Source of the DNA: Bacillota bacterium
Lineage (GTDB): Bacteria; Bacillota; UBA4882; JBLNCG01
NCBI GenBank assembly: GCA_050260475.1
Contig: JBLNCG010000061.1
Coordinates: forward strand, 79,559 to 143,558
Direction: 5' to 3'
DNA length: 64,000 nt
Below are positions 37,567 to 59,494 of this stretch, one piece after another. Made by a program: the position numbers and the translations under genes. Position 1 is the stretch's first letter; every line of letters starts with the position of its first letter. A model generated the notes under the pieces. The model did no database searches. It was not told the DNA's origin and saw only the letters and a list, made by a program, of their open reading frames with translations.

Positions 37567-37595
37567 ATTATATTAAAAAAAACCGTGATTGTCCA
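37567..37595 (-). promoter_or_regulatory. sigma-A promoter candidate for efp
   Basis: The minus strand reads TGGACA, a 17-nt spacer, then TATAAT, about 40 nt upstream of the efp ATG. Confidence 0.5.
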
Positions 37596-37645
37596 CACTT
37601 TTCTGCCTTTTATCAAGCTCCGCCCCGGGATAAAGGGATTTTCTT

Positions 37646-38713: not shown

Positions 38714-38745
38714 CAGAATACCTCCCGGCGCTTTCCTTTAACGGG

Positions 38746-39183: not shown

Positions 39184-39242
39184 ATCGATACCTCCTACTA
39201 CTAAAAAATAGACGATGGAATACAGAGGACAGGATACAGAAG

Positions 39243-40328
39243 TTAAATCAAGCCCTCCCCGAGGACATTCATTACCAGATCTTTATCAATATCATCGGTG
39301 ATGATGGCTTCCCCGATTTTAACGGTAAAGACCATGCGAATCCGGCCCTGCCGCGCCTTTTTATCCCCCTGCATCAGGTCCCAGACGCGCAGGGGATTAT
39401 ACGCCGGCACAGGCAGGCCGGCAAGGAGCTTCCGCACCATGCGCAACTGCTTTTCCCCTTCTCCGGCGGACAGAATCCCCATCCTCATCGCGATCCGGGC
39501 GGCCGCGGCAATGCCCAAAGCCACCGCTTCGCCATGGCGAAAATATCCGTAGCGGAAATACGACTCCAGGGCGTGCCCTACCGTATGGCCGTAATTTAGG
39601 AGCGCCCGCTCTCCTGCCTCCTTTTCATCCCTTTCAACCACCGCGGCTTTGATCCGGCACGACCATGCCACGGCTTTTTCCAGCGCCGCGTTATCCGCCG
39701 CCACTATCCGGTCCAGATTTTCATCAAGGTATGAGAAAAAGGCGGCGTCCTTGATCATGCCGTGTTTGACCAGTTCCGTCAATCCCGCCCTCAATTCCCG
39801 GCCGGGCAGGGTTTTAAGCGTTGACAGATCGGATATCACCAGGCGCGGCTGATGAAAAGCCCCGATCAGATTTTTCCCGCGGGGGTGGTTGACGCCGACC
39901 TTCCCCCCGATGCTCGAATCCACCTGCGCCAAAAGCGTAGTGGGAATCTGGACAAGGGGCAGGCCCCGCAAGATCGTGGCTGCCGCGAATCCGGCCATGT
40001 CGCCGACAACTCCGCCGCCCAAAGCCAGCACTGCAGTCTGACGGTCCGCCGGCCAGGACAGGGCCGCATCGTAAATGCGCCGTATCTGCCCCAGATTCTT
40101 ATATTTCTCCCCGTCCGGAACCTCCACGGCCCGGCAGTTCATTCCCGCTGCCGCCAGACATTGGAGGACCGGTTTCAGATACAATCGCCCCACGGTGGGA
40201 TTTGTTACAAGCAGGCATTTCGGGCCCAGGCCGCACGCGGCGATCATTTCTCCCGCCCGCGCAGAAACACTCTCGCCGATGTGAATACGATAACCGCAGC
40301 CGTCTAAATTAACTGCCACAACCTTCAT
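39243..40328 (-). CDS. aroB: 3-dehydroquinate synthase
   Basis: It has the GGGVVGDMAGFAA nucleotide-binding block and the YGHTVGHALE metal site. I prefer the ATG at 40328 (GGAGGAA RBS). The 45-codon extension in the ORF track is rejected. Confidence 0.94.
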   Translation of the reverse strand: MKVVAVNLDGCGYRIHIGESVSARAGEMIAACGLGPKCLLVTNPTVGRLYLKPVLQCLAAAGMNCRAVEVPDGEKYKNLGQIRRIYDAALSWPADRQTAVLALGGGVVGDMAGFAAATILRGLPLVQIPTTLLAQVDSSIGGKVGVNHPRGKNLIGAFHQPRLVISDLSTLKTLPGRELRAGLTELVKHGMIKDAAFFSYLDENLDRIVAADNAALEKAVAWSCRIKAAVVERDEKEAGERALLNYGHTVGHALESYFRYGYFRHGEAVALGIAAAARIAMRMGILSAGEGEKQLRMVRKLLAGLPVPAYNPLRVWDLMQGDKKARQGRIRMVFTVKIGEAIITDDIDKDLVMNVLGEGLI

Positions 40329-41757
40329 GAACCGGTTCCTCCAGTGCCTTTTTGGACGGGGATTGGACCATCTCCATGGCCAGGGAGATCCCCATGATGC
40401 TCCAGAGCAGCGGCCAGGTGCTGACTTTGTCGTAAATGAACGCCCCTTGCGCCAGATAAGCAAGTAGCAGCAGGCGCATGGTCAGGACAAAACATCTTTC
40501 GCCTTTTGCCAAAAAAAGGCAGCGAAAAAGCAGCGCCAAATATGCAATCAGTCCGGGAATTCCCATCGTAACGGCCAAGTCGAGGTAAATATTATGCGCC
40601 TTGATGCTCGGGGCCTTCCCGGCCCCTTGAATATACGGCAGCGAATCCAGCCCCGCCCCCTTAAACCAGTATTTGGGCAGCACCTTAAGCATCCATTTCC
40701 ACATGGCAATACGTTCACCCGTGGAATAAAGATATCCCCGCCCCGGAATCCTGGCTTCAACCTTGCCTCTAACCGCCAAATCCGACTCCCGGCTGATGGA
40801 GGCCATTCTTTTTAACAGCATCCAGTTATGCAGAGGCAGCAGGCTCAAGACCACGGCAATACACAATCCGCAAGCCAAAGCAAGCTTAACATAATGTTTC
40901 CGGAAGCATATCAACGTACATATGGATAAACACGCCAGAGCCACCCAGGCTCCCCTGCTCAATGTGGCCAAAAGGCTGGCAAAAATCAACGCACTCAATA
41001 ACAGCCAGATTTTGCTATTGCCCCGCAAAAATTTATAAAGGGCCAAGGGCAGTAAAAACAACAGATACGTGGCGAACCAGTTGGGATTTCCCATGGTGCT
41101 GTAGCTGCGGAACAAGTTATCAAAATACCATGTGCCTCTGGGCAGCAAATTTAAGCCCAGATACTGCAGGACGCCTATGGCCGCCACCGGAACACCGCCC
41201 AGCAATAAGGCGTTTATCCCATGTTGAATATCGTCTTCCGTTTTCAGGCAGATCAGGGGGAGGCAGAGAAAAACCATGCAGAAAATCACTGTCATTAAGC
41301 CGGTGTGCTGGTAGTGGTGTCCGTAAAACGCATTTACCGCCGCCATGGTGTAATCGCTGAAGATTATCCACAGGCATCCCAGGCCGATAAATGTAAAACC
41401 CAAATTCAAGGCATCCGCGGGATAAAATCCACGGCGGGCCCTGTGATACAGCAAGCCGGCCAATACCATGCCGGCCAGAAAAAAAATGATTGTGTCGCTG
41501 TTTAATCCATAAAACGCCAAAAAATACAGGGCGGCCGTCATGGCCGGAATCAGCATCAGCGGAAAGCCGCGGATTTTTTCCCCGCGCGCGGGCCACGTGG
41601 CGCCGGCCAACGCCGCAACCGCCGCGGCGCCGAGAAACTTCAGGTAAGAATATTTCACCAGGGTAAAATGGACGAAGGAAGGGGAGAATGCCAGTGGAAA
41701 AGTGCTTAAAAAAACACAGAAAATCCATTTGCCCGTTTTATGCCAGAATTCTTTCAT
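40309..41757 (-). CDS. O-antigen ligase-like (Wzy_C domain) polytopic membrane protein, last gene of the pilus locus
   Basis: It has about 11 TM helices, the block LLATLSRGAWVAL and a later AHNIYLDLAVTMGIPG, both typical of the WaaL/PilO(TfpO)/PglL family. I prefer the ATG at 41757, because the extension to 41937 would overlap the upstream pilin gene. Confidence 0.75.
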   Translation of the reverse strand: MKEFWHKTGKWIFCVFLSTFPLAFSPSFVHFTLVKYSYLKFLGAAAVAALAGATWPARGEKIRGFPLMLIPAMTAALYFLAFYGLNSDTIIFFLAGMVLAGLLYHRARRGFYPADALNLGFTFIGLGCLWIIFSDYTMAAVNAFYGHHYQHTGLMTVIFCMVFLCLPLICLKTEDDIQHGINALLLGGVPVAAIGVLQYLGLNLLPRGTWYFDNLFRSYSTMGNPNWFATYLLFLLPLALYKFLRGNSKIWLLLSALIFASLLATLSRGAWVALACLSICTLICFRKHYVKLALACGLCIAVVLSLLPLHNWMLLKRMASISRESDLAVRGKVEARIPGRGYLYSTGERIAMWKWMLKVLPKYWFKGAGLDSLPYIQGAGKAPSIKAHNIYLDLAVTMGIPGLIAYLALLFRCLFLAKGERCFVLTMRLLLLAYLAQGAFIYDKVSTWPLLWSIMGISLAMEMVQSPSKKALEEPVHEGCGS

Positions 41758-41911
41758 GCCTGATTCATTATCCTTCCCGCTGTATTCATCCGCTATTATT
41801 ATTCCATAACCGCCGGAATCATCCTGCCGGCCTGATAAATAAACACGATAAAAGACAACCCGGGCCGGACCCGGGTTTTTATATGCGCATCCGCAACCAA
41901 ATCTTAAATGG

Positions 41912-42403
41912 TCATACATCGCTGGTGCGCTGGGCAACGGATACTTTTACCGAGTGGGTCTCATCCGTCTTATAATCCATCTTAAAGTTTATTTGCACCG
42001 TAACCAGGGAAGGACCCACTGCAAAATTCAAGGGATTGGCGTCAGCCAAATACATGCGGGTAACAACGGTTTTCCTTACGGCGCCGTCCACATAATGGCA
42101 AATATTCCCGTCACCGTCAAGCTTAATCTCGTTATTTTTATCGGATTGGTCTTTGAACGCAAGATTGGATGCCCCCGGCAAGGTAAAATATCTCCCGCTT
42201 CTTAAAACCCGCTCAAGGTATTCGATGGCCTGTATCCCTAAATATCGCATCTCATCTTTCTTTTTTTGCCTTGCGTATTCGTCCAGAAAGGTAACATAGT
42301 TCTGCATCACCGCAACCGAGACAATGATAAAGATGGATATGGCCACCAGTATTTCCACCAACGTAAAACCGGAGGTTTTTTGGTTATGGGTCGTCATCGT
42401 CAA
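41912..42403 (-). CDS. minor pilin / pseudopilin (prepilin-type N-terminal cleavage-methylation domain), cassette 1 gene 3
   Basis: The leader is ...KTSG|FTLVEILVAISIFIIV with Glu at +5. It is a paralog of 45122..45700, sharing QKK..EM, NEI..DGDGN..HY, PSLV.V.INF and AQRT. Confidence 0.85.
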   Translation of the reverse strand: MTMTTHNQKTSGFTLVEILVAISIFIIVSVAVMQNYVTFLDEYARQKKKDEMRYLGIQAIEYLERVLRSGRYFTLPGASNLAFKDQSDKNNEIKLDGDGNICHYVDGAVRKTVVTRMYLADANPLNFAVGPSLVTVQINFKMDYKTDETHSVKVSVAQRTSDV

Positions 42404-42439
42404 AACCTCTTTGGTAATTAATTCGCCATAAGATCCTGC

Positions 42440-42874
42440 TTAATACTCCACTTGCTGGACAACTTCCGTTACCAGCTCAATTAAGGACGGGCCTGCTTTC
42501 GTCATGTCGGCGGCATTGGATGAAGCGGCTTTATATACCCTTATATCGCACCGGTATTTATTCCTGCCGTCCACATTAACCTTGGCCACGGCCTGTTCCT
42601 TGATATAGTGCCCGTTAAATAAAACCTCATGAGTGGTCACGGGATTATCGTCCACATATGTAAACGTGTTGCGCATCAATTGGCTACGCAGCAGATCCAC
42701 CGATGAAGAGGCGATTTTAGTGGCTTCATCCATCTGCCGGGCGTCTTTCTCGTTGCGCAAGTTTACAAGCAGGGTTTCCCCGGACAGGATAATTGCGAGA
42801 GCCAGGAGGAAAATCGCCACAATCACCTCGGGTATGGTGAATCCCCTTTGACGGCCCCTGTTCATTAATCTCAC
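42440..42874 (-). CDS. minor pilin / pseudopilin, cassette 1 gene 2
   Basis: The leader is ...RQRG|FTIPEVIVAIFLLALAI. It is a paralog of 45715..46161, sharing DEA.KIASS..D..RSQ. Confidence 0.85.
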   Translation of the reverse strand: MRLMNRGRQRGFTIPEVIVAIFLLALAIILSGETLLVNLRNEKDARQMDEATKIASSSVDLLRSQLMRNTFTYVDDNPVTTHEVLFNGHYIKEQAVAKVNVDGRNKYRCDIRVYKAASSNAADMTKAGPSLIELVTEVVQQVEY

Positions 42875-42876
42875 CT

Positions 42877-44859
42877 CTATGATATCGCCTTGGCGGGCGC
42901 GTAAAATCTTTCTTTATACTGCCGGATCCTGATGTTGGTCAAACGCGCCACAAAGGGCGCATTGGCCATATTCTCATAGCGCCAGACACGCCGGGACGGG
43001 GTGTAATATTGCCCGCTCCAGTCGGAATCCACAAAAACGGTATTGAAAGCATCGATAAAACACCCCTTGACTGTGACAACGCGATAGCTTTCCCACTTTT
43101 CAAGAAAGCGCACGAAATTCTCCAAACCGCCGTTATAATGCACTTTATTCCCATAGGCGGAACTGTTGGTTTCCAAATCGATGCGCAATTGCGCAAGCAA
43201 AGCGTTATACCCGGGTTTAGTCCAGTCTTTTTCCGCTTCCCTGACTATGGTTTCTTCTGTGATTTCCTCCTTGTTTGCGGGATCACGCGGATCCTTCACG
43301 TATGTGTCTTTATTCCCCGCCACTATCGCCGCGTTGACGGTCATTGCGCTAAGGTAGCTTCCATCCGCCTTCTTGGGGATATTCGTATTATTGGTCGCCA
43401 CGGGAACGGCCGTGCAAAAATAAGGGGAAACCAACGTCAAACACTGGGAGGCAAACATAAGGTCGTAATATTTGGAACCGTCCGCCCTGCAATTGACGTT
43501 GCCTGATACATACAAAGGCGCATCCGTAACAATACTGGTATGCGCGTATATTTCATCGGCGTTTTTAACCAATACCGCGGGAAAAAACTCGCCCATCACG
43601 CCTTCTTCCTCTTCGTTTATCTCCTCGGCCATGGTGATGTAAATGATATCCTGCTGCAAATCAATATTAGGGCTGACGGTTCGGAAATATTCGTAGAGCT
43701 TTTTTATGTCTATTCCGACGACCTTTACCTTCCGGCCTTCGCGGCCGTCCGTAAAAGCCGAGACATTGTTCGGTCTGCCGGGATAAGTGGCGAAGTATAT
43801 TGCGGCGTGCAAACCCGAAGTGTCCTGAAGATCCTTTTTCAACTCAAAATCCTTGTCGGGATCGGACAACGGATCCCTGTATCTTGCGGGGGCGGCCGGA
43901 TCCGTCATGATATATACATAACCCCTGCCTACACTGTCGACTTCGACCACCAGCCCATATTCAAGCGCTTTTTTATGGTAAAATCCGCCCCTTGCCAGGT
44001 CCTGCAAAGGCGGAGAGGCTTCCGGATTGGCGTAGCGCCGGACTATCTGCCCCCAGCGCGAGGCGCATCTGGTGTCAAATTGAAGGTTGCCCCAATGCCC
44101 GTCTTCGCTGACAAGCATATTGTCGTCTTTAATCTTGATATAATTATCCCTGTATTGAAAATACCCCAAATCAAATTTCCTGCGGCGGTAAAAGTTCCTT
44201 TCCGTCTCAAGTTTTTTTGTGGCCGCGGCGCCAATAGGATCGGAGGGATCCCCGAAGGTAACCTCCACATTATCGGCTCCGGGCGTCAGGTATGCCCCTC
44301 CCCTGCCGTGCAGGCTTCCGTAAACATCAAGGCGCGTTCCGGGCTGGACTTCCAAATCCCGGATGGTATAGATGAAATACTTGGTAATGGGTTCGCTGAC
44401 GATTTCATTGCTGAATTCAATGATATAATAATGGCCCGTTGCCTCCGATTCGGCCTTTACCGTCAGGGGAAAGCTTCTGATTATCGGGTCGGGCAGGCTC
44501 GGATTTCCCGTAAGTGTTATGGGGCCCGTCAATTGCGACGTAAGTATGTATTTTATGCCTTTAATGGTGACATCAAGCATTCCGGCGGCAATGGTATACT
44601 GTGACGCGTCCGGCAAATCCGATTCCCTTGTGATGTCCTTCTTGCCTTCGATGTAATGGTCATAAATGTTCTTTTTGATATAGTCCACCCCGATCTCCGC
44701 CGCGTTTCTTAAAACCGTGGCTTCCCTCGACGAAACCGTGCGGTTTAAGGTATTGCTTGTAGAAAGGAGCAGGCCCGCACAAATCAGAAAGATAAAAAAA
44801 ATCAAAAACAATACAACGACAATGACGATTCCGCTCTCGTCCCTGCGCATATCAAACAC
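42877..44859 (-). CDS. large (660 aa) GspK/PilX-like pseudopilin-type protein lacking Glu5, cassette 1 gene 1
   Basis: The N-terminus is ...DESG|IVIVVVLFLIFFIFLI, a class III signal-like hydrophobic helix with no E5. I recognise no domain in the large C-terminal region. It is clearly paralogous to 46158..48353. Confidence 0.7.
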   Translation of the reverse strand: MFDMRRDESGIVIVVVLFLIFFIFLICAGLLLSTSNTLNRTVSSREATVLRNAAEIGVDYIKKNIYDHYIEGKKDITRESDLPDASQYTIAAGMLDVTIKGIKYILTSQLTGPITLTGNPSLPDPIIRSFPLTVKAESEATGHYYIIEFSNEIVSEPITKYFIYTIRDLEVQPGTRLDVYGSLHGRGGAYLTPGADNVEVTFGDPSDPIGAAATKKLETERNFYRRRKFDLGYFQYRDNYIKIKDDNMLVSEDGHWGNLQFDTRCASRWGQIVRRYANPEASPPLQDLARGGFYHKKALEYGLVVEVDSVGRGYVYIMTDPAAPARYRDPLSDPDKDFELKKDLQDTSGLHAAIYFATYPGRPNNVSAFTDGREGRKVKVVGIDIKKLYEYFRTVSPNIDLQQDIIYITMAEEINEEEEGVMGEFFPAVLVKNADEIYAHTSIVTDAPLYVSGNVNCRADGSKYYDLMFASQCLTLVSPYFCTAVPVATNNTNIPKKADGSYLSAMTVNAAIVAGNKDTYVKDPRDPANKEEITEETIVREAEKDWTKPGYNALLAQLRIDLETNSSAYGNKVHYNGGLENFVRFLEKWESYRVVTVKGCFIDAFNTVFVDSDWSGQYYTPSRRVWRYENMANAPFVARLTNIRIRQYKERFYAPAKAIS

Positions 44860-44912
44860 CTCAGTGAAATGTTAAGGCTTTTTGGGATTTTTCCGCTGTC
44901 GGCGGGGTATAT

Positions 44913-45028
44913 AGCAATTTGTGTCGTTATGATGATTTTACGTCTTGCCATAAAAATCGATAGCCTAATGGTAACCATACACTATTTTCAGTGGCAAGAC
45001 CTTGAATTAAGGTAACAACGCAATTGCC
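44913..45028 (+). repeat. family A repeat, copy A5 (between the two pilus tip cassettes)
   Basis: AGCAATTTGTGTCGTTATGATGATTTTACGTCTTGCCATAAAAATCGATAGCCTAATGGTAACCATACACTATTTTCAGTGGCAAGACCTTGAATTAAGGTAACAACGCAATTGCC. The GCCA/TGGC pair is compensatory relative to GCCG/CGGC in the other copies. Confidence 0.85.
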
Positions 45029-45121
45029 TTTGTATATAACTATTTACCAAATTTATTCTGCATCCAATTTAATCATCCTTCTAAAGCGGCGATAAAGATT
45101 AAAACCTGGGGGTTGCCCGGG

Positions 45122-45700
45122 TCATTGAATCTCGTCCATGGTCCTTTGCGCGATGCAAACCTCCAGGGGATAAGTGACGAATGTATTTCTCTGCGGCACG
45201 CTGAAGTTTATATATACTTTCACCAGGGACGGGTACGTGGTGAAGGTGATGGGCGCGGTGGGCGCCAGATATCTTGCGGGAATGACGGTGCGTTTCCGTA
45301 TCAATTGATTGTTGTTCAATGTATCATAAATATAATGCGTGACGTTTCCATCGCCGTCGACCCTTATCTCATTCAATTGATCATGCCTTCCCGTGTTAAA
45401 ACCGGTTTCGTCGATAATATTATGCTGATCATAAAACTGCAGCCTGTCGGTTTTCAACACCCCGTTCTCGTAAGGTATGCGGTAATTCTTTCCGGCCCTG
45501 ACGACAATCTCCATGTAGCTGACGGTCTGCACCGCCATGAATTGCATCTCTTCGGTCTTCTTCTGGGTCATATAGTCATTGATGAAGTTGTAATAGACAT
45601 TTATCAAAATTATAAAGCCAATGCTCAGGATGGCGATTGCCACCAGGATCTCCGAGAAGGTAAAACCGGCGGCGCTTTTTACGTTTATTCCTTTTTTCAT
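45122..45700 (-). CDS. minor pilin / pseudopilin, cassette 2 gene 3
   Basis: The leader is ...KSAAG|FTFSEILVAIAILSIGF with Glu at +5. It is a paralog of 41912..42403. Confidence 0.85.
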   Translation of the reverse strand: MKKGINVKSAAGFTFSEILVAIAILSIGFIILINVYYNFINDYMTQKKTEEMQFMAVQTVSYMEIVVRAGKNYRIPYENGVLKTDRLQFYDQHNIIDETGFNTGRHDQLNEIRVDGDGNVTHYIYDTLNNNQLIRKRTVIPARYLAPTAPITFTTYPSLVKVYINFSVPQRNTFVTYPLEVCIAQRTMDEIQ

Positions 45701-45714
45701 GCGATTTACCCCCG

Positions 45715-46161
45715 TTATTGCTCAACCTGGAGCGCGATCCGCGAAGACAAATCCGCCAGGATCTGCGGTATTTTCGTGGAAACGGCCGTGTTGGCCGGAT
45801 CGGTGGATTCGGCGGCGTATACTTTTACGGTACAGCTATAAATCGGCGTTAAACCGGGTTGATTGGGATCATATTGAATCCTTGCCACATTAATAATCCT
45901 TATATAATGCCGGTTCAAAAAAGCCACGTTCGCCGTCTCGCTCATATCGGCCATTAAATTTCCCCTTAATATCTGGCTGCGGTAGTCATCCATGGCGCTT
46001 GACGCGATCTTGGCGGCCTCGTCGATCATGCGGCTCCTTATTTCCAGGCGCAGGTTGGCGGTCATCGTATAAGAGGACCAGACGACCACCATCCCCATGA
46101 TGAAGATGGCGATGATTACCTCTACGAAACCAAGGCCTTTTTCATCCATCTGGTTTCTCAT
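45715..46161 (-). CDS. minor pilin / pseudopilin, cassette 2 gene 2
   Basis: The leader is ...DEKG|LGFVEVIIAIFIMGMV, and Glu falls at +5 only if cleavage follows the first Gly. It overlaps the upstream large gene by 4 nt and is a paralog of 42440..42874. Confidence 0.8.
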   Translation of the reverse strand: MRNQMDEKGLGFVEVIIAIFIMGMVVVWSSYTMTANLRLEIRSRMIDEAAKIASSAMDDYRSQILRGNLMADMSETANVAFLNRHYIRIINVARIQYDPNQPGLTPIYSCTVKVYAAESTDPANTAVSTKIPQILADLSSRIALQVEQ

Positions 46162-53749: not shown

Positions 53750-53873
53750 ACTCACCCTTTCCCTCTCTTTTGCGAAAGAGAGGGTAACCCGGAGCCTTCG
53801 AAGCCTTACTATGACCCCCTCTATTCCGCAGAAGAGGGAAGAGGGGGGTGAGTTCGACTTTATCACGACGCTT
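53750..53873 (-). repeat. family B structured repeat, copy B2 (inverted relative to B1), abutting the pilD stop codon
   Basis: The reverse complement reads AAGCGTCGTGATAAAGTCGAACTCACCCCCC...CCCTCTTCTGCGGAATAGAGGGGG..AAGGCTTCGAAGGC..CCCTCTCTTTCGCAAAAGAGAGGG.AAGGGTGAGT. The closing stem is ACTCACCC with GGGTGAGT. Confidence 0.75.
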
Positions 53874-54659
53874 TTAATAATATCCCCCTTTAATATATCG
53901 GCCGAACCAGTAAAAAAGATAATCTCCCCACAGGATGAGAATCATCGCCGCCAGCGCCAAAAACGGCCCGAAAGGAATGATTCTTCCCTTTGATAATTTC
54001 TTCCATATGAAAAGCCAAATTCCTGCCGCGCTCCCGAAAAATGACGCCAGGAAAACAGTTGCCAAAACTTCCCTCGGGCCGGTGAAAGCCCCGATCATGG
54101 CCAGCAGCTTGATGTCTCCCCCGCCCATGCCTTCCTTTTTAAGCAGCTTGAGGCACAGCCAGGCCACGGCATACAGCAGGCCCCCTCCCAGCGCCAATCC
54201 CCCCAGATTTTCCCAGGGTACGGCGCGGTTCAGCAGCCAGGGGACGGCAATCCCCAGGACCATGCCCGGATAGGTTATCAAATTCGGAATAATCATGCAG
54301 TCCAGGTCGATAAAGGAGACCGCCAGCAGCATCGCGGCAAAGGCGGCGTAATAAACGGCCTCCCACGTAAGACCGTAAACCCAAACGACCAGCGCGAACA
54401 ATAATCCGCAAATAAACTCCACCAGGGGGTAGCGCCGGGAGATTTTACCCCGGCAATACCGGCAGCGCCCCTTCAAGGCCAGGAAGCTGAAAAGGGGGAA
54501 TAAATCGAATATTCCCAGGGGATGCCCGCAGTCCGGGCAATGGGATCCCGGCCGCGCCAGCGATTCCCCCCTGGGGATGCGCCAGATGCAGACGTTAAGG
54601 AAACTTCCCACGCTGATGCCGTAAAGAAAGGCGATGATATAAAAAATCCAGGGCAGCAT
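53874..54659 (-). CDS. pilD: prepilin peptidase / N-methyltransferase (A24 family)
   Basis: 261 aa with the N-terminal zinc motifs CPDCGH and CRYC, the catalytic Asp regions FIDLD and GGGDIKLLAMIGAF, and multiple TM helices. Confidence 0.93.
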   Translation of the reverse strand: MLPWIFYIIAFLYGISVGSFLNVCIWRIPRGESLARPGSHCPDCGHPLGIFDLFPLFSFLALKGRCRYCRGKISRRYPLVEFICGLLFALVVWVYGLTWEAVYYAAFAAMLLAVSFIDLDCMIIPNLITYPGMVLGIAVPWLLNRAVPWENLGGLALGGGLLYAVAWLCLKLLKKEGMGGGDIKLLAMIGAFTGPREVLATVFLASFFGSAAGIWLFIWKKLSKGRIIPFGPFLALAAMILILWGDYLFYWFGRYIKGGYY

Positions 54660-54675
54660 TTTACGACCTCCCCCG

Positions 54676-54704
54676 AAAATGAAAAGCGGCAGCCAAGCTG
54701 CCGC
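54676..54704 (-). terminator. intrinsic terminator/attenuator immediately downstream of the major pilin gene
   Basis: The minus strand reads GCGGCAGC-TTG-GCTGCCGC followed by TTTTCATTTT. It sits in the 62-nt gap between the pilA stop and the pilD start. Confidence 0.7.
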
Positions 54705-54721
54705 CGTCCGCTAGATTGATC

Positions 54722-55162
54722 TTACGTCCTGCCGAATACGCCTGTCCGCGCCCAGGGCTGGTTGGGGTCGGGCTTGATGGACTCGTGCTTGAGAATACTG
54801 TTTGCGTTATTGCATAAAATATCGTATTGCATGACGTCGCCGCCAGGGTTGGTATACGTATAAGGAGCAACGTTGGCGGTGCCAATCGCCGTGCCAAAGG
54901 GGCAGATGCCCATATTGACGTTGTAGCCCACGGCTGTGGCCAAAGCATCACCAGTCAAGGGGCCGGCCGGATACTGGTTGTTGGTGGCGTAATAGCTCTC
55001 GCATCCGGTCAGGAGGTTACGGACGTTACTGGCGCATTTGACGTCGTTGGCCTGGTCTCTCGCCTTGCTGAACTGGGGCAGCAAGAGGGCGGCCAGAATG
55101 CCGATAACCAGGATAACTACCAAAAGCTCGACCAGGGTAAACCCGGCTTGTCCTTTACGCAT
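54722..55162 (-). CDS. pilA: type IV major pilin
   Basis: The leader is MRKGQAG|FTLVELLVVILVIGILAALLLPQF with Glu5. I prefer the ATG at 55162 (AAAGAGGTG RBS 9 nt upstream) over the ATG at 55183. The globular part carries four Cys residues. Confidence 0.92.
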   Translation of the reverse strand: MRKGQAGFTLVELLVVILVIGILAALLLPQFSKARDQANDVKCASNVRNLLTGCESYYATNNQYPAGPLTGDALATAVGYNVNMGICPFGTAIGTANVAPYTYTNPGGDVMQYDILCNNANSILKHESIKPDPNQPWARTGVFGRT

Positions 55163-55311
55163 TTTTACAAACACCTCTTTCATTTTTTTTATTGAACCTG
55201 GCAGGTGGAACCTCTCTTTTTCACCCGCACCCCCCCCTTATAAAGAGATAAAAGTATGGGATTATGATAAATTGATTTGCCTGGTCCTTATTTTTTCAAA
55301 CTTCACCCTTT

Positions 55312-56550
55312 TCAGGTGCCCATGGCCTGGGTCATCTGCATCATCGGGAGCATGATGGCCGCCACAATCATCCCGACCACTCCCCCCAGCAGCACCACGA
55401 TCATGGGCTCCATCATGGAAGTAAGGTTCTTAACCGCGTGCTCCACTTCCTTTTCGTAAAAGTCCGCCACTTTTTCCATAACCGTCTCCACATTGCCGGT
55501 CTCCTCGCCGATGGCCATCATCTGGGATACCATCACGGGGAACAGGTTCATTTCCATAAGGGGCCTGGCCATCCCGGTACCTTTTTTCACGCCTTCCTGG
55601 ACGTTGACAATGGCGTCGGCCAGGATCCTGTTGTCCAGCAGCCCCTTCAAGACCTCCAGGGATTGCAGGAGCGGCACGCCGCTGGAAAAAAGAGTGGAAA
55701 AGATCCGGCAGAACCTAGCCACGGATGTTTTCATCACCAGATCCCCGAAAAGCGGGATTTTCAGGGCGATCATGTCGATATTGCGCCTGCCGCCGGAAGT
55801 CTTGCGATAGGAGCTATAACCGATTGCTAAGCCTGTAATGCCGAGAATCATCGCCCACCAGTAATCCGTGAAAAGCGTACTGATGCCCAACAGCAACTGG
55901 GTGAGGGGGGGGAGCTGGATGCCCTGCTCGGAAAAAATCTTTTTAAAAATCGGAAGCACGAAGATGAACAGTCCGGCGATAACCCCCGCAGCGACCCCCA
56001 GGATGACCATGGGGTAGATCATGGCGCCGATGATTTTCTCGCGCAGGTCCAATTCCTTTTCAAAGTTCACGGCCACTTTCTCCAAGACCTGATCCAGAAT
56101 ACCGCCCAGTTCCCCGGCTTCCACCATGCTCACGAAAAGGTTCGGAAAGGCTTTCGGAAACCTGCGGGCGGCCGCTGAAAGCGTAGACCCTCCTTGCACG
56201 TCCCTGCTGATTTCTTGAATTACCGCCTGCAGAACCTTGTTGCTGACCTGCTTTTGCAATATCGTCAGACAGGTCAGAAGCGGAAGGCCCGAATTGACCA
56301 TGACGGCAAACTGGCGGCACATGATGGTTAAATCCTTCAATCCGACGCGCCGATGGGGATTGACCGCGCCCGGGCTTACCCCCGTTCGGACGGCGCCGCC
56401 TATCTTCGAATCAGCTTTGGGCCTGATAGCCAAAACATACATGCCCTGATCCCTAAGCTTTGCAACGGCGGCCCGGTCCGATTCGGCTTCAATAACGCCA
56501 ACGCTTGTCCCGCCTGATTTGTCCCGGACCTGATATTGGAAGGAAGGCAT
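55312..56550 (-). CDS. pilC: type IV pilus platform protein PilC (GspF family)
   Basis: 412 aa with the duplicated T2SSF domain architecture and three TM segments. Confidence 0.93.
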   Translation of the reverse strand: MPSFQYQVRDKSGGTSVGVIEAESDRAAVAKLRDQGMYVLAIRPKADSKIGGAVRTGVSPGAVNPHRRVGLKDLTIMCRQFAVMVNSGLPLLTCLTILQKQVSNKVLQAVIQEISRDVQGGSTLSAAARRFPKAFPNLFVSMVEAGELGGILDQVLEKVAVNFEKELDLREKIIGAMIYPMVILGVAAGVIAGLFIFVLPIFKKIFSEQGIQLPPLTQLLLGISTLFTDYWWAMILGITGLAIGYSSYRKTSGGRRNIDMIALKIPLFGDLVMKTSVARFCRIFSTLFSSGVPLLQSLEVLKGLLDNRILADAIVNVQEGVKKGTGMARPLMEMNLFPVMVSQMMAIGEETGNVETVMEKVADFYEKEVEHAVKNLTSMMEPMIVVLLGGVVGMIVAAIMLPMMQMTQAMGT

Positions 56551-56654
56551 TTAAATATCCTCCTAATAATTAGTATCGATCCGATTTATGGATCTTGCAA
56601 GCCATTTTTTCATGACATTTTGACCGTAATACCGGACAAAACGGCCGGTATATA

Positions 56655-57719
56655 TTACATGTTGGCCAATTTTCGGAATTCCTCCTGATCCATGGCCCTG
56701 AAAAGGGCTTCCTGGAAACTCACCAGGCGGCGCAAATAAAGATCCTTCAGCGCCGCGTCCATGGTCTGCATGCCCATTTTGCCGCTGGTCTGGATGACGG
56801 AATAGATCTGATGCGTTTTGCTTTCGCGGATAAGATTCCGTATGGCGGGCGTGGCGATCATTAATTCCACCGACACGCACCGGCCGGGCATATCCACGCG
56901 CGGTAAAAGCTGCTGGGAAACAACGGCCTGCAGCACCGCGGAAAGCTGGATCCTGACCTGCTGCTGCTGGTGAGGGGGGAACATGTCCACGATCCTGTCC
57001 ACTGTCTGCACGCTGTCATTGGTGTGCAGGGTCGCAAAGACAAGGTGCCCGGTTTCCGCCGCGCTAATGGCCGTGGAGATTGTCTCCAGATCGCGCATCT
57101 CGCCTACCAGGATGACGTCCGGATCCTGCCGCAACGCCGAGCGGAGCGCGTCCGCGAATGATATGGAATCCACCCCTATTTCGCGCTGGTTGATGATGCT
57201 CCTCTTGTGGCGGTGCAGAAATTCTATGGGGTCTTCCAGTGTGATGATATGGCAGTTCCTTTCCATGTTGATGATATCGATCAGCGCCGCAAGCGTGGTG
57301 CTTTTTCCGCTCCCGGTCGGCCCCGTCACCAGGACCATGCCCCGGGTCTTTTCCGTCAACGACTTCAAGGCCGGCGGCAATCCCAGCACTTCAAGAGTGC
57401 TGATTTCACTGGGGATCAACCTCATGACTCCCGCCAGGGTGCCGCGCTGGCTGAAAATGTTTACGCGAAATCTGGCTATGCCTTTTTTGCCTATGGAAAA
57501 GTCGACCTGTCCTTTTTTCTCCAGGGTCGATTTTTGCACCGGATTTACCAGGGAAAGAAGGGCCGGGGTCAATTCCTGAGTGCCTAAAACCTCCTGGTTT
57601 GATATTGCTACCAGTTCGCCGTTGATCCTGACCATGGGAGGCAAACCGTTGGTAAGATGAATATCCGAGGCGTTGTTGTCCACAGCGTACTGAAAAATTG
57701 CGTCCATATCCAATGGCAT
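56655..57719 (-). CDS. pilT: type IV pilus retraction ATPase PilT
   Basis: 354 aa with Walker A GPTGSGKSTT and the PilT-specific AIRNLIRE motif. Confidence 0.95.
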   Translation of the reverse strand: MPLDMDAIFQYAVDNNASDIHLTNGLPPMVRINGELVAISNQEVLGTQELTPALLSLVNPVQKSTLEKKGQVDFSIGKKGIARFRVNIFSQRGTLAGVMRLIPSEISTLEVLGLPPALKSLTEKTRGMVLVTGPTGSGKSTTLAALIDIINMERNCHIITLEDPIEFLHRHKRSIINQREIGVDSISFADALRSALRQDPDVILVGEMRDLETISTAISAAETGHLVFATLHTNDSVQTVDRIVDMFPPHQQQQVRIQLSAVLQAVVSQQLLPRVDMPGRCVSVELMIATPAIRNLIRESKTHQIYSVIQTSGKMGMQTMDAALKDLYLRRLVSFQEALFRAMDQEEFRKLANM

Positions 57720-57778
57720 AATCTTCCCCCTCGCTCTCTTTTAATTGTTCATCGGTTTTCTTGTGGACGATAGAAACT

Positions 57779-59494
57779 TTATTGTTCTCCCGTATAAGCG
57801 ATGCGAATCACTTCATCAATAGTGGTCTGGCCTTTGATGGCTTTCACCAACCCGTCCATCATCAATGTCCGCATGCCTGACTTTATGCCGGCATCCCTCA
57901 GGATATCGGCGGAAACGTTTTTGCACGTCAAGGCGATCAGTTCCTTGTTCATGATCATCACTTCGTGTACGGCTACCCGTTTTGCGTAACCGGTGTTGTT
58001 GCACATCTTGCACCCCCTGCCTTTGATCAGTTTAAGGGACTGATCCGGCTTTACGTTTGGCGGGAGGTACGGCTGGATCATCAGGCGGACCGGATCATCC
58101 GGGGCCAGTTGGTATTCCTCCTTGCAGTTATTGCATATGCCGCGCACCAGGCGCTGGGCGATAATCCCGATGACCGTGGAACCCACCATATACGGTTCGA
58201 TGCTCATATCGATCAGCCGGGTGATGGATGAAGGCGCATCGTTGGTGTGCAGGGTGGTCAGCACCAGATGGCCGGTAAGAGCCGCCTGGGTGGCGATGCG
58301 CGCCGTTTCTCCGTCGCGGATCTCGCCGACCATAATGATGTCGGGGTCCTGCCGCAGAAAGGAGCGCAAGGCCGCGGCGAAAGTCAGCCCTGCTCTGGTA
58401 TTCACCTGGACCTGATTGACCCCCCTGATCTGATATTCCACCGGGTCCTCTACAGTCATGATATTGACATCCGAGCTATTCAACTCCGACAAGACCGCGC
58501 TCAGCGTGGTGCTTTTTCCGCTCCCGGTCGGCCCCGTCACCAGGATAATCCCGTGCGGCTGCATATACACGGACCGAAATTTGGAAAGCGTATCCTCCAG
58601 AAATCCCAACTGTTCGAGTTTAAGCTGAATGGTATTCTTGAAAAGGATACGCATGACGATCTTCTCTCCGAAAACCACCGGCAGGCAGGATACACGAAGA
58701 TCAATGGCGAGGTTGTCCACCATCATCTGGATGCGGCCGTCCTGGGGGACGCGCTTTTCTGCGATGTTCATGTTGGAGATGATTTTGATACGGGAGATGA
58801 TGGCGGCCTGGGTATTTTTGGGAACGGTCATGACCTCGCGCAATACGCCGTCTATCCTGTATCTGACTTTTACCTCCCCCTCCCACGGTTCGATATGAAT
58901 GTCGCTGGCCTTATCCCGGACGGCCTGGGTGATGATAAGGTTGACCAGCCTGACGATGGGGGCTTCTTCCACCATCTCTTTCAGTTTGGTGATATCAACC
59001 TCTTCCTCGGTATCCTTTACAATTTCAATATCCTTGAAAACTTCCTCCACGGAACTGCGCACACCGTAGTACTGGTTGAAAGCCTTTCTCAGATCGTCGT
59101 CCGATACGATCACGGGCTGGATATCGCGATTCAAGGTGATCTTCAATTCATCCAGGGCGAAAACGTCCGTAGGATCGATCATGGCGAGCACCAGTTTCTC
59201 GCCCCGCATTTCCACGGGGAAGACATTGTATTTTTTCGCCACCGGCTCCGGAACCATGCTCAGGACTTCGGGGGTGATGTTTCTCTTGGCCAGGATGACA
59301 TGGGGCACTCCCAGTTGGAACTCCAGCACCTCGATAAGATTCTGGTCCGTGATGACGCCCTGCTCCACCAGGATGGCGCCCAGCCTTTTCCCGGAATCCT
59401 TTTGCGCCAGAAGGGCCCTTTGCAGTTGATCCGGCTTGATATAGTTGGCCTCTAGCAGGATTTCACCAAGCTTCTTGCGAAAAACCGTAGCCAA
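57779..59494 (-). CDS. pilB: type IV pilus assembly ATPase PilB (GspE family) with an MshEN-type N-terminal domain
   Basis: 571 aa with Walker A GPTGSGKSTT and the tetracysteine motif CNNC...CKMC. The N-terminus has a tandem RLGxxLVxxGxI...L...L..Q motif. The start codon is TTG with an AGGTGA RBS. Confidence 0.95.
   Translation of the reverse strand: MATVFRKKLGEILLEANYIKPDQLQRALLAQKDSGKRLGAILVEQGVITDQNLIEVLEFQLGVPHVILAKRNITPEVLSMVPEPVAKKYNVFPVEMRGEKLVLAMIDPTDVFALDELKITLNRDIQPVIVSDDDLRKAFNQYYGVRSSVEEVFKDIEIVKDTEEEVDITKLKEMVEEAPIVRLVNLIITQAVRDKASDIHIEPWEGEVKVRYRIDGVLREVMTVPKNTQAAIISRIKIISNMNIAEKRVPQDGRIQMMVDNLAIDLRVSCLPVVFGEKIVMRILFKNTIQLKLEQLGFLEDTLSKFRSVYMQPHGIILVTGPTGSGKSTTLSAVLSELNSSDVNIMTVEDPVEYQIRGVNQVQVNTRAGLTFAAALRSFLRQDPDIIMVGEIRDGETARIATQAALTGHLVLTTLHTNDAPSSITRLIDMSIEPYMVGSTVIGIIAQRLVRGICNNCKEEYQLAPDDPVRLMIQPYLPPNVKPDQSLKLIKGRGCKMCNNTGYAKRVAVHEVMIMNKELIALTCKNVSADILRDAGIKSGMRTLMMDGLVKAIKGQTTIDEVIRIAYTGEQ

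What the first reader, a model, noticed from the sequence alone, without database searches (positions are those of the whole stretch)
40309..59494. Complete PilBTCAD-ComFB-PilMNOP-secretin locus embedded in conserved yqe/aro synteny of a spore-former
The ~19-kb co-directional locus has 20 CDS. It encodes:
- both ATPases, the platform protein, the major pilin and the peptidase
- a full alignment subcomplex (PilM, N, O and a PilP-like protein)
- a secretin
- six minor or tip pilin-like proteins and a Wzy_C protein

Established knowledge, as I recall it: clostridial T4P loci contain PilA/B/C/D/M/N/O/T but no PilP or PilQ. The PilMNOPQ module is the hallmark of diderm T4aP systems.

The locus is inserted precisely between yqeG-yqeH and aroB-aroQ-pepP-efp, which are adjacent or near-adjacent blocks in Bacillus-type genomes.

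Inference: this is either an ancestral diderm-Firmicute machine or an unusual envelope-spanning pilus in a monoderm.
Basis: partly seen in the sequence, partly recalled or inferred. Interest (0 to 1): 0.65.

Follow-up and report, generated by a model that had tools for sequence, protein, structure and literature searches.

The report
Firmicute type IV pilus with secretin
This is a complete, retractile type IV pilus gene cluster with an outer-membrane-type pore, in an uncultured spore-forming Bacillota bacterium; the same cluster in the same genomic slot already exists in known two-membraned Firmicutes, so it is an expected ancestral machine, not a new kind.

Summary
Window 40309-59494 (minus strand) encodes PilB, PilT, PilC, a major pilin, PilD, ComFB, PilM, PilN, PilO, a PilP/GspC-like protein, a secretin, two paralogous minor-pilin triplets and a Wzy_C protein. 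I count 18 well-supported CDS, not 20.

The "insertion" reading is not supported. The slot between yqeG/yqeH and aro-pepP-efp-spoIIIA is the conserved home of the pilus locus in Bacillota.
- Selenihalanaerobacter (Halanaerobiales, a recognised diderm order) has Wzy_C-PilD-minor pilins-PilMNO-PilP-like-secretin-aroCKBQ-pepP-efp-spoIIIA.
- Hydrogenispora has PilBTCAD-minor pilins-PilMNO-PilP-like-secretin.
- Monoderm Tepidanaerobacter has the locus in this slot without PilP-like or secretin.

The secretin belongs to a Bacillota family with two C-terminal LysM domains.

The host is a deep, uncultured lineage: its PolA is at most 50% identical to anything found. Its outer membrane could not be tested from this window.

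Best reading: a vertically inherited diderm-Firmicute T4aP, a new member of a known kind. Interest is low to moderate. The LysM-tethered PilQ subclass and the orphan ~700-aa tip proteins are the only fresh details.

The parts
57779..59494 (-). PilB extension ATPase with an N-terminal MshEN-type domain. Two RLGxxLLxxGxIxxxxLxxxLxxQ-like motifs at aa 8-58 suggest c-di-GMP binding.
   Evidence: Pfam T2SSE 5e-136, MshEN 5e-21. Motifs read from the sequence. 64-69% identical to PilB of secretin-bearing loci L002, L102 and L104, against 41-48% to monoderm Clostridium/Tepidanaerobacter PilB.
56655..57719 (-). PilT retraction ATPase.
   Evidence: Pfam T2SSE 8e-53. Walker A GPTGSGKST and the AIRNLIRE motif are in the sequence.
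55312..56550 (-). PilC platform protein.
   Evidence: Pfam T2SSF, two repeats, 2e-63.
54722..55162 (-). Major type IVa prepilin (146 aa from Met8; cleavage site G/FTLVE).
   Evidence: N_methyl 2e-8; NCBIfam GspG, PilA and ComGC N-terminal hits; gene length as called in L010.
54685..54705 (-). Terminator-like hairpin directly after the pilin gene (a possible attenuator).
   Evidence: Consensus scan, 9-bp stem with 7 GC pairs plus a T tract. This is a pattern match only.
53874..54659 (-). PilD prepilin peptidase / N-methylase.
   Evidence: A24_N_bact 2e-34, Peptidase_A24 5e-21.
53410..53670 (-). ComFB-family small protein, a candidate cyclic-dinucleotide-responsive regulator.
   Evidence: Pfam ComFB 9e-19; NCBIfam 1e-12. 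ComFB is also inside or next to the pilus locus in L018, L102, L004, L005 and L107. The receptor function is from my own knowledge of the family and was not tested.
52020..53105 (-). PilM, actin-like cytoplasmic alignment protein.
   Evidence: PilM_2 1e-58.
51466..52023 (-). PilN: bitopic, with the ISLLP PilM-binding motif.
   Evidence: PF05137 E 0.012 alone; 6 of 6 orthologues hit PilN, best 4e-12. Start and stop codons overlap those of pilM and pilO.
50918..51469 (-). PilO.
   Evidence: Pfam PilO 3e-20.
50328..50918 (-). PilP/GspC-HR-like protein: an N-terminal TM helix, a Pro-rich linker and a C-terminal beta domain. Predicted to bind the secretin N0 domain.
   Evidence: TIGR03021 pilP E 0.002 and GspC E 0.014. 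Profile A4 hits the OutC/GspC HR domain in 6hcg (0.009), 2lnv and 3oss. Found directly upstream of the secretin in every full locus and absent from secretin-less loci.
48443..50323 (-). PilQ-type secretin: signal peptide, N0 (aa 36-114), N1 (118-175), secretin barrel (181-384), disordered Pro/Gly/Glu linker (400-513), two LysM domains (516-626). No AMIN domain.
   Evidence: Pfam Secretin 8e-32, Secretin_N, LysM x2 3e-30. TIGR02515 PilQ 3e-34 and GspD 5e-35, both below the trusted cut-offs. AF2 pLDDT 80.3. Foldseek: InvG 2e-20, V. cholerae PilQ 6w6m 3e-20, GspD 5wq7 9e-20.
48446..48778 (-). The part of the secretin gene that encodes the tandem C-terminal LysM peptidoglycan-binding domains.
   Evidence: Pfam. 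AF2 pLDDT 95-98. Foldseek 4uz3 LysM, 38% identity. The same fusion occurs in 38 of the 149 best cluster representatives.
46158..48353 (-). K1: a 731-aa GspK/PilX-like large minor pilin (G/IALVI, no Glu5), a candidate tip or adhesin subunit.
   Evidence: N-terminus read from the sequence. AF2 gives only a pilin-like helix plus sheet at aa 5-151; the rest is unusable (pLDDT 32.7). No homologue in the word-indexed search, no PDB sequence hit. The C-terminal YNGGLENFVR motif weakly matches HpsA NF038301, 3e-6.
45715..46161 (-). Minor pilin, 148 aa (G/FVEV).
   Evidence: N_methyl 0.0017. Paralogue of 42440-42865, 35% identical.
45122..45700 (-). Minor pilin, 192 aa (G/FTFSE).
   Evidence: N_methyl 1e-4. 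PilV, ComGE and ComGF N-terminal hits. Paralogue of 41912-42403, 36% identical.
42877..44850 (-). K2: a ~657-aa paralogue of K1.
   Evidence: 31% identity over 753 columns, E 5e-93. Start revised to the ATG with a GAGGTG ribosome-binding site.
42440..42865 (-). Minor pilin, ~141 aa (G/FTIPE).
   Evidence: N_methyl 7e-6.
41912..42403 (-). Minor pilin, 163 aa (G/FTLVE).
   Evidence: N_methyl 1.5e-6.
40309..41757 (-). Wzy_C (O-antigen-ligase-like) polytopic membrane protein, a candidate pilin O-glycosyltransferase. Its end overlaps the aroB start by 20 nt.
   Evidence: Wzy_C 4e-19; RfaL 3e-7. A Wzy_C gene lies directly after the pilin gene in Selenihalanaerobacter L106. The function is inferred from context and from TfpO/PglL precedent (my own knowledge).
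60239..61859 (-). Upstream flank: yqeG (HAD phosphatase, 61344-61859) and yqeH (GTPase, 60239-61357).
   Evidence: YqeH-like_C and MMR_HSR1. yqeG is 43-48% identical to the gene in the same position in L012, L014 and L018.
36962..40328 (-). Downstream flank: aroB, aroQ, pepP and efp, followed by the spoIIIA operon.
   Evidence: DHQ_synthase. Similarity to Pfam-labelled aroQ, pepP and efp of L106. SpoIIIAH and YqfD.

Best explanation
The locus encodes a complete, retractile type IVa pilus machine of the diderm-Firmicute kind. It was inherited vertically in its ancestral chromosomal slot by a deep-branching, uncultured, endospore-forming Bacillota lineage that most probably still has an outer membrane.

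Proposed mechanism:
- PilD processes the major pilin and four minor pilins.
- The PilC platform and the PilB ATPase polymerise the fibre. PilB has an MshEN N-domain and is probably c-di-GMP responsive. PilT retracts the fibre.
- Cytoplasmic PilM binds the PilN N-terminus. PilN and PilO span the inner membrane.
- The membrane-anchored PilP/GspC-HR-like protein links PilNO to the N0 domain of the secretin.
- The secretin multimer forms the gated pore through the outer membrane. It is tethered to the thin peptidoglycan layer by two C-terminal LysM domains on a ~110-residue flexible linker. These would do in cis what AMIN domains, TsaP or FimV do in Proteobacteria.
- The two paralogous triplets (one large Glu5-less K-like protein plus two small minor pilins each) would prime assembly and present alternative tips or adhesins.
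- Wzy_C probably glycosylates pilin. ComFB probably couples the machine to cyclic-dinucleotide signalling or competence.

Shown here: gene identities, architecture, synteny, the family distribution of the LysM secretin, and the co-occurrence of PilP-like with the secretin.

Inferred: an outer membrane in this host, peptidoglycan tethering, the tip role of K1/K2, glycosylation and the regulation.
For: - Component identities.
- Same organisation and synteny in a recognised diderm order. Selenihalanaerobacter shriftii L106 reads pilin-Wzy_C-PilD-minor pilins-PilMNO-[211 aa]-secretin+LysM-aroC-aroK-aroB-aroQ-pepP-efp-spoIIIAA-AE.
- Hydrogenispora ethanolica L104 reads PilBTCAD-3 minor pilins-[400 aa]-PilMNO-[203 aa]-secretin+LysM. 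Its PilB is 65%, PilT 64% and secretin 29% identical to the window's.
- Its relative Capillibacterium (OPB54) is a spore-former with an outer membrane seen by TEM, 3-OH fatty acid and 52% GC (PMC8375423).
- The literature already reports a T4P locus plus PilQ in all Negativicutes and Halanaerobiales (PMC5007114).
- Every named organism among the best exhaustive-HMMER secretin hits is Bacillota: Hydrogenispora, Selenihalanaerobacter, Halanaerocella and Bacillota MAGs (one carries a Bacteroidota label).
- 38 of the 149 top representatives, and nearly all of the top 25, carry the C-terminal LysM pair.
- In a rough NJ tree the window groups with P0151 and P0152 next to the Hydrogenispora/digester clade.
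- Sister loci L107 and L102 keep the same order and flanks.
- PilP-like and the secretin are present or absent together.
- There is no compositional anomaly. Tight, overlapping gene junctions, including Wzy_C with aroB, argue for an old resident operon.
Against: - No outer-membrane marker (BamA, Lpx, Lpt, OmpM, Skp, TamB) was seen.
- The host is not a member of any named diderm lineage by similarity. PolA is at most 50% identical to anything, with hits spread over many classes. EF-P's best named hit is monoderm Tepidanaerobacter at 59-61%.
- Some relatives show decay of the module. UBA5486 and CTOTU40321 have an orphan secretin that lacks the C-terminal PLLGxLF motif. The UBA3943 secretin is split into two ORFs. 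Lineages around this one may therefore be in transition.
- PilP and PilN assignments are sub-threshold for the window proteins alone.
Confidence: 0.75

Rival explanations
1. The host is a monoderm, or has only an S-layer and thin wall. It has kept the secretin, which, anchored by its LysM domains, forms a conduit for the pilus through peptidoglycan rather than through an outer membrane.
For: - No outer-membrane gene was seen in the accessible sequence.
- Housekeeping proteins are as close to monoderm Clostridia as to diderm lineages.
- LysM domains bind peptidoglycan.
- How pili cross the wall in monoderm Firmicutes is an acknowledged open question (PMC5007114).
- Many deep Bacillota stain Gram-negative without outer-membrane genes (PMC11448272).
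Against: - The same LysM-secretin family and locus occur in Halanaerobiales and in the OPB54 group, where an outer membrane is documented.
- In every monoderm T4P locus surveyed, the secretin and PilP-like are both gone.
- The secretin domain is full-length (Pfam positions 1-168 of 169) and folds like outer-membrane secretins.
- A C-terminal tether is equally sensible under an outer membrane.
Confidence: 0.08
2. The PilMNOP-secretin module, or the whole locus, was acquired horizontally from a classical diderm phylum and inserted between yqeH and aroB.
For: - The closest EF-P relative (L012) has an empty yqeG-yqeH-pepP-efp junction.
- Secretins are frequently co-opted between systems (PMC6668835).
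Against: - The pilus locus occupies this slot across Bacillota, with or without the secretin.
- The best secretin and PilB relatives are all Bacillota.
- No GC or skew discontinuity, no mobile-element genes and no tRNA or repeat boundary were noted.
- The Wzy_C and aroB genes overlap.
Confidence: 0.03
3. It is the same machine, but its main job is DNA uptake (a competence pilus), not motility or adhesion. ComFB and retraction by PilT would serve transformation.
For: - ComFB is embedded in the locus and conserved there in relatives.
- PilT is present.
- The closest solved PilQ by Foldseek is the V. cholerae competence secretin, although the margin over GspD and InvG is negligible.
Against: - No comEA, comEC or dprA was identified among the window's ORFs; they were not searched for specifically.
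- Two sets of large variable tip proteins and a candidate glycosyltransferase suggest surface adhesion.
- ComFB-family proteins also regulate motility (my own knowledge).
- The functions are not mutually exclusive.
Confidence: 0.2

Closest known systems
T4P locus with PilQ of diderm Firmicutes (Halanaerobiales and Negativicutes; Antunes et al. 2016, eLife, PMC5007114); concrete example Selenihalanaerobacter shriftii FUWM01000017 (L106)
   Same: - Gene set and order: pilin, Wzy_C, PilD, minor pilins, PilM-N-O, a ~200-aa PilP-like protein, and a secretin with C-terminal LysM.
- Downstream synteny: aroC/K/B/Q-pepP-efp-spoIIIA.
- A spore-former genomic background.
   Different: - Sequence identities are low: secretin 30%, PilM 29%, EF-P 46%.
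- In the window the minor pilins lie after the secretin and are duplicated, with ~700-aa K-like proteins.
- ComFB sits between PilD and PilM, and Wzy_C is at the distal end.
- The host is not Halanaerobiales by housekeeping similarity.
Hydrogenispora ethanolica (OPB54 group) T4P locus, SLUN01000014 (L104); secretin WP_132014684
   Same: - PilB-T-C-A-D ... PilM-N-O-[203 aa]-secretin+2xLysM.
- PilB 65%, PilT 64%, PilC 42%, PilD 44% and PilM 36% identical.
- Similar GC (51%).
- An anaerobic sludge or digester habitat for the related MAGs.
   Different: - Minor pilins and a 400-aa K-like protein lie between PilD and PilM.
- No ComFB or Wzy_C was seen in the fetched stretch.
- The locus is not followed by the aro-efp block there.
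- The secretin is only 29% identical.
Proteobacterial and myxobacterial T4aP machine (PilBTCD, PilMNOPQ, TsaP, FimV)
   Same: - The same functional parts list: extension and retraction ATPases, a platform, a PilMNO alignment complex, a PilP-like N0 binder and a secretin with N0, N1 and the barrel.
- Fold match to V. cholerae PilQ 6w6m and P. aeruginosa PilQ 6ve2.
   Different: - The secretin has no AMIN domains.
- Peptidoglycan binding is by LysM domains fused to the secretin C-terminus, not by the separate LysM proteins TsaP and FimV.
- The PilP-like protein has a TM anchor and no lipobox.
- No pilotin (PilF/Tgl) was seen.
- All genes lie in one locus.
Monoderm clostridial T4P loci (Clostridium, Tepidanaerobacter)
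   Same: - The same chromosomal slot in Tepidanaerobacter: sigma factor-yqeG-PilB-PilC-pilins-ComFB-PilM-N-O-pepP-efp-spoIIIA.
- The same core genes.
   Different: - They lack the PilP-like protein and the secretin (0 of 16 loci).
- Their PilB is only 41-48% identical.

Membership tests
Type IVa pilus machinery (diderm type, PilBTCD + PilMNOPQ) | Extension ATPase PilB and a separate retraction ATPase PilT | tested here: met
   T2SSE 5e-136 and 8e-53. The AIRNLIRE motif is in the 354-aa protein.
Type IVa pilus machinery (diderm type, PilBTCD + PilMNOPQ) | PilC platform, a prepilin peptidase, and a major pilin with a short leader and G/F-x-x-x-E | tested here: met
   T2SSF x2, A24 domains and N_methyl. 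The sequence reads MRKGQAG/FTLVE.
Type IVa pilus machinery (diderm type, PilBTCD + PilMNOPQ) | PilM-PilN-PilO alignment complex | tested here: met
   PilM_2 1e-58 and PilO 3e-20. PilN is 0.012 alone, but 6 of 6 orthologues hit PF05137 and the ISLLP motif is present.
Type IVa pilus machinery (diderm type, PilBTCD + PilMNOPQ) | PilP: an inner-membrane lipoprotein whose HR/beta domain binds the secretin N0 domain | tested here: inconclusive
   Sub-threshold TIGR03021 hit (19 bits against a 34.65 cut-off). Profile hits to GspC/OutC HR domains at E 0.009-0.6. A TM helix replaces the lipobox. Position and co-occurrence with the secretin are conserved.
Type IVa pilus machinery (diderm type, PilBTCD + PilMNOPQ) | PilQ secretin with N0, N1 and the C-terminal secretin barrel | tested here: met
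   Pfam Secretin positions 1-168 of 169. AF2 pLDDT 80 with N0, N1 and barrel. Foldseek E 2e-20 to 3e-20 to InvG and PilQ. NCBIfam PilQ and GspD scores (119-121 bits) lie below their equivalog cut-offs (284-351), so this is a divergent subfamily.
Type IVa pilus machinery (diderm type, PilBTCD + PilMNOPQ) | AMIN domains at the PilQ N-terminus (typical of proteobacterial PilQ, not universal) | tested here: not met
   No PF11741 hit. Two C-terminal LysM domains are present instead.
Type IVa pilus machinery (diderm type, PilBTCD + PilMNOPQ) | An outer membrane for the secretin to sit in | not testable with these tools
   Only 64 kb of the genome is available. No outer-membrane marker lies in the window or in the flanks of relatives.
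Diderm-Firmicute T4P locus (Antunes 2016; Taib 2020 lineages) | A cluster like that of monoderm Firmicute relatives, plus a PilQ homologue | tested here: met
   Compare the window with Tepidanaerobacter L018 (no secretin) and with L106 and L104 (secretin).
Diderm-Firmicute T4P locus (Antunes 2016; Taib 2020 lineages) | Host belongs to Negativicutes, Halanaerobiales or Limnochordia | tested here: inconclusive
   PolA is at most 50% identical to anything; named hits at 44-48% include a Limnochordia bacterium, Desulfoscipio, Selenomonadales and Halanaerobiaceae. EF-P's top hits are unnamed digester MAGs. UBA3943 and UBA5486 relatives may be among the digester UBA genomes assigned to Limnochordia (PMC11456536), but I could not verify this.
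Type II secretion system | GspC/L/M assembly platform, GspD with N0-N3, no retraction ATPase | tested here: not met
   PilT and PilMNO are present. The secretin has only N0 and N1.
ComG competence pseudopilus of monoderms | ComGA/GB plus ComGC-GG only, with no PilT, PilMNO or secretin | tested here: not met
   All of these extra parts are present.

The most novel reading that the evidence does not exclude
The organism has no outer membrane. The LysM-tethered secretin, held by the PilP-like protein, forms a pilus conduit embedded in the cell wall or S-layer. That would be a transitional or repurposed state in the diderm-to-monoderm transition, and an answer to how a type IV pilus can cross a Gram-positive wall.
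Probability: 0.07. Interest if true: 0.85.

Novelty: new member of a known kind. Interest (0 to 1): 0.3.

Why it matters
If the host is confirmed as diderm, the locus adds one more deep, uncultured, spore-forming Bacillota lineage that keeps the ancestral outer-membrane pilus machinery in its ancestral position. That is modest support for the view that Firmicutes descend from a diderm ancestor and lost the outer membrane several times.

Three details may deserve a specialist's look.

1. **LysM-tethered PilQ.** Bacillota-type PilQ proteins, including those of Halanaerobiales and Hydrogenispora, carry two C-terminal LysM domains. This is a peptidoglycan tether in cis, where Proteobacteria use AMIN domains, TsaP or FimV. 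A survey paper (Denise et al. 2019) stated that secretins of diderm Firmicutes lack a distinctive architecture.

2. **Linked loss.** The PilP-like protein and the secretin are gained or lost together. Neighbouring lineages show apparent decay stages: orphan truncated secretins, split ORFs and an empty site. These could mark outer-membrane loss in progress.

3. **Orphan tip proteins.** The two ~700-aa K-like tip proteins have no detectable relatives.

Tried and rejected
- **Taxonomy from single markers.**
  - EF-P gave only unnamed digester MAGs at 64-67%.
  - PolA gave at most 50% identity, spread over many classes. Class-level placement is not possible.
  - The supplements of the biogas MAG paper label the relatives only 'Firmicutes sp.'.
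  - Taib et al. 2020 is not held.
  - Literature searches for UBA5486 and UBA3943 gave no taxonomy.
- **Secretin relatives by word-indexed search**. LysM words swamped the candidate list, and the nearest non-self hit was 24% identical. Exhaustive HMMER with the LysM part removed solved this.
- **PilB scans.**
  - Two genome-contig scans with PilB failed on the server.
  - The third was limited by exact 8-mer patterns. It missed the known 64-69% relatives and is uninformative about PilB phylogeny.
- **Seven-sequence secretin alignment.** It was too divergent for a pattern scan.
- **K1/K2.**
  - There was no homologue in the word search, which also failed to list the in-window paralogue, so its sensitivity here is doubtful.
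  - There was no PDB sequence hit.
  - The AF2 model from 2 sequences had pLDDT 32.7, so no fold search was run on it.
- **Outer-membrane markers.** None were found in the window or in relatives' flanks. PD40 beta-propeller proteins (window 18192-20015; L002) recall TolB, but that is not diagnostic.
- **Riboswitch or sRNA upstream of pilB.** Rfam found nothing in the whole window.
- **Decayed aroE remnant between yqeH and pilB.** tblastn found nothing.
- **Promoter and terminator scans.** Counts are at chance level overall. Only the hairpins after pilA, after yqeH and after the last minor pilin are positioned sensibly.

Full report
**Observation**

Every long ORF between 40309 and 59494 lies on the minus strand. 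Pfam and NCBIfam identify the following:
- PilB (T2SSE plus MshEN), PilT, PilC and a type IVa prepilin (G/FTLVE);
- PilD, ComFB, PilM and PilO;
- a secretin with N0-like, Secretin_N and Secretin domains and two C-terminal LysM domains;
- four small prepilin-like proteins, two large proteins with Glu5-less pilin-like N-termini, and a Wzy_C protein.

PilN is sub-threshold alone, but all six aligned orthologues hit PF05137.

The 196-aa protein between PilO and the secretin has a TM helix. It has a weak pilP hit (E 0.002). A profile of its family matches the HR domain of GspC/OutC in three PDB entries.

I count 18 well-supported CDS with ribosome-binding sites and mostly overlapping or very short junctions, not 20.

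The six pilin-like genes are two paralogous triplets: a large K-like protein plus two small ones each, 31-36% identical pairwise.

The spoIIIA operon, yqfD, a pro-sigma factor and a SpoVD-like gene are nearby, so the host is an endospore former. Base composition is unremarkable across the locus.

**Who is the host?**

- EF-P's best matches (64-67%) are unnamed 'Bacillota bacterium' MAGs from anaerobic digesters. The best named genus is Tepidanaerobacter at 59-61%.
- PolA is at most 50% identical to anything among 5.8 billion clustered proteins. Named hits at 44-48% are spread over a Limnochordia bacterium, Desulfoscipio, Calderihabitans, Thermoanaerobacterales, Selenomonadales and Halanaerobiaceae.

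The host is therefore a deep, uncultured Bacillota lineage. It is not a close relative of any described group, and I could not place it at class level.

**Is the locus an insertion?**

No. Five loci bear on this.
- Tepidanaerobacter (monoderm) has SpoVD-sigma-yqeG-PilB-PilC-pilins-ComFB-PilM-N-O-pepP-efp-spoIIIA. This is the same slot, without the PilP-like gene or the secretin.
- Selenihalanaerobacter shriftii (Halanaerobiales, a recognised diderm order) has pilin-Wzy_C-PilD-minor pilins-PilM-N-O-[211 aa]-secretin+LysM-aroC-aroK-aroB-aroQ-pepP-efp-spoIIIAA-AE.
- An uncultured sister lineage (L107) has pilin-PilD-ComFB-PilM-N-O-[268 aa]-secretin+LysM-two pilin-like genes-[644-aa K-like]-aroC-aroKB-aroQ-pepP-efp-spoIIIAA. 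This is the window's order.
- UBA3943 (L102) has PilBTCAD-MNO-[210 aa]-secretin-ComFB-aroC-aroB-aroQ-pepP-efp, with PilB 69% and EF-P 67% identical.
- One close EF-P relative (L012) has an empty yqeG-yqeH-pepP-efp junction, most simply explained as a loss.

**The secretin family**

A word-indexed search was swamped by LysM words. An exhaustive HMMER search with residues 1-400 found 88 cluster representatives at E <= 1e-30.

The named ones are Hydrogenispora ethanolica, Selenihalanaerobacter shriftii, Halanaerocella petrolearia and 'Bacillota/Firmicutes bacterium' MAGs; one MAG carries a Bacteroidota label.

38 of the best 149 representatives, and nearly all of the top 25, have the same C-terminal LysM pair.

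Hydrogenispora's locus is PilBTCAD-three minor pilins-[400 aa]-PilMNO-[203 aa]-secretin+LysM. Its PilB is 65% and its PilT 64% identical to the window's.

A rough NJ tree puts the window's secretin with two uncultured LysM secretins, beside the large clade that holds Hydrogenispora and the digester MAGs. The tree has no support values, so it is only indicative.

An AF2 model from a 40-sequence alignment (pLDDT 80.3) shows these regions:
- N0: residues 36-114
- N1: residues 118-175
- barrel-forming sheets: residues 181-384
- disordered linker: residues 400-513
- two confident LysM domains: residues 516-626

Foldseek matches outer-membrane secretins: InvG 2e-20, V. cholerae PilQ 3e-20 and GspD 9e-20.

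**Diderm or monoderm?**

Supporting a diderm host:
- The literature states that Negativicutes and Halanaerobiales carry a T4P locus like that of their monoderm relatives, plus PilQ (PMC5007114).
- Limnochordia, including 46 UBA genomes mostly from digesters and mud, are a third diderm lineage (as cited in PMC11456536).
- Capillibacterium, the cultured relative of Hydrogenispora in the OPB54 group, is a spore-former in which TEM shows an outer membrane, peptidoglycan and a plasma membrane. It has 3-OH fatty acid and 52% GC (PMC8375423).
- In my own survey, 0 of 5 efp-adjacent T4P loci and 0 of 11 Clostridium/Tissierellia PilB+PilM loci have a secretin or a PilP-like gene. The PilP-like gene sits directly upstream of the secretin in every complete secretin locus.

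The module therefore tracks the diderm state wherever that state is known.

Limits of this inference:
- I could not test the window's genome for outer-membrane markers. None lies in the 64 kb or in the flanks of relatives.
- Deep Bacillota that stain Gram-negative without outer-membrane genes do exist (PMC11448272).
- Decay states in neighbouring lineages keep a small probability for a transitional or wall-embedded use. These are orphan secretins lacking the PLLGxLF motif in UBA5486 and CTOTU40321 and a split secretin in UBA3943.

**Mechanism**

Shown: the parts list, the domain architecture, the coupling of PilP-like with the secretin, and the conserved operon structure.

Inferred from established T4aP biology:
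- PilD matures the pilins. PilC and PilB extend the fibre, and PilT retracts it.
- PilM, PilN, PilO and the PilP-like protein connect the cytoplasm to the secretin N0 ring. The secretin gates passage through the outer membrane.
- The LysM pair, on a ~110-residue flexible linker, would anchor the pore to peptidoglycan. In Proteobacteria that role is played by AMIN domains and by the separate LysM proteins TsaP and FimV (titles and abstracts).
- The PilB N-terminus has two MshEN-type motifs, and ComFB is a conserved passenger of the locus. Both suggest cyclic-dinucleotide control (my own knowledge of these families).
- Wzy_C lies directly after the pilin gene in Selenihalanaerobacter, as tfpO does in Pseudomonas. 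It is therefore a candidate pilin glycosyltransferase.
- K1 and K2 have no detectable relatives, and only their N-terminal pilin-like head is modelled. Their position and Glu5-less termini fit GspK/PilX-like tip subunits.

**Verdict**

- The 'insertion' reading is not supported.
- The 'ancestral diderm-Firmicute machine' reading is the best supported (about 0.75).
- The organisation is already known for diderm Firmicutes and is present in public genomes of cultured species.
- It is a new member of a known kind, and interest is low to moderate.

Noticed in passing
L004 9941-11773 and L005 9983-11794 (MAGs CTOTU40321 and UBA5486): Orphan secretin+LysM genes lie inside the aro cluster (aroE-secretin-ComFB-aroC-aroB-aroQ) with no pil genes nearby. 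Their Secretin domain is truncated (Pfam positions 2-133 of 169) and the conserved C-terminal PLLGxLF motif is missing. They may be relics of a lost pilus or outer membrane, or may have another use.
   Followed up: partly
L102 9956-11990 (UBA3943): The secretin of the closest syntenic relative is split into two ORFs. This is either a frameshift or pseudogene, or an assembly error.
   Followed up: no
L012 (AS08sgBPME_75, DURH01000020): One of the closest EF-P relatives (66%) has sigma factor-yqeG-yqeH-pepP-efp directly adjacent. It has no pilus locus and no aroB or aroQ, so the whole block is gone.
   Followed up: partly
window 42877-44850 and 46158-48353: Two paralogous ~660/731-aa proteins with pilin-like N-termini have no homologue found by the word-indexed search and no PDB sequence hit. 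They share a C-terminal YNGGLENFVR..W motif that weakly matches cyanobacterial HpsA (NF038301, E 3e-6 and 4e-5). The equivalent large protein in sister locus L107 (644 aa) shows no detectable similarity to them.
   Followed up: partly
window 23036-25696: PolA is at most 50% identical to any of 5.8 billion clustered proteins. The organism represents a very poorly sampled deep Bacillota lineage.
   Followed up: partly
window 59826-60238: About 400 nt lie between the yqeH stop codon and a strong terminator-like hairpin (59805-59825). This stretch has no convincing ORF, no Rfam match and no aroE remnant. A further ~310 nt of leader follows before pilB.
   Followed up: partly
window 18192-20015 and 20083-20703: A 607-aa secreted protein with PD40 beta-propeller repeats and a SPOR (septal peptidoglycan-binding) domain lies next to an SLT lytic transglycosylase. 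A 419-aa PD40 propeller protein also lies near the pilus locus in L002. The propeller is TolB-like but is not diagnostic of an outer membrane.
   Followed up: no
window 36264-36698: A 144-aa acidic protein with two CxxC pairs lies between efp and spoIIIAA. It has no Pfam family, yet it is conserved in this position (23-39% identity) in many Bacillota loci, including L013, L017, L018 and L048.
   Followed up: no
L001 (JBLNDC010000172) and P0304 (MGE5598122): Contigs that carry this Bacillota-type PilMNO-PilP-like-secretin+LysM locus are deposited as 'Bacteroidota bacterium' MAGs. The secretin is 88% identical to that of a Bacillota MAG, so this is probably a binning or labelling error.
   Followed up: no
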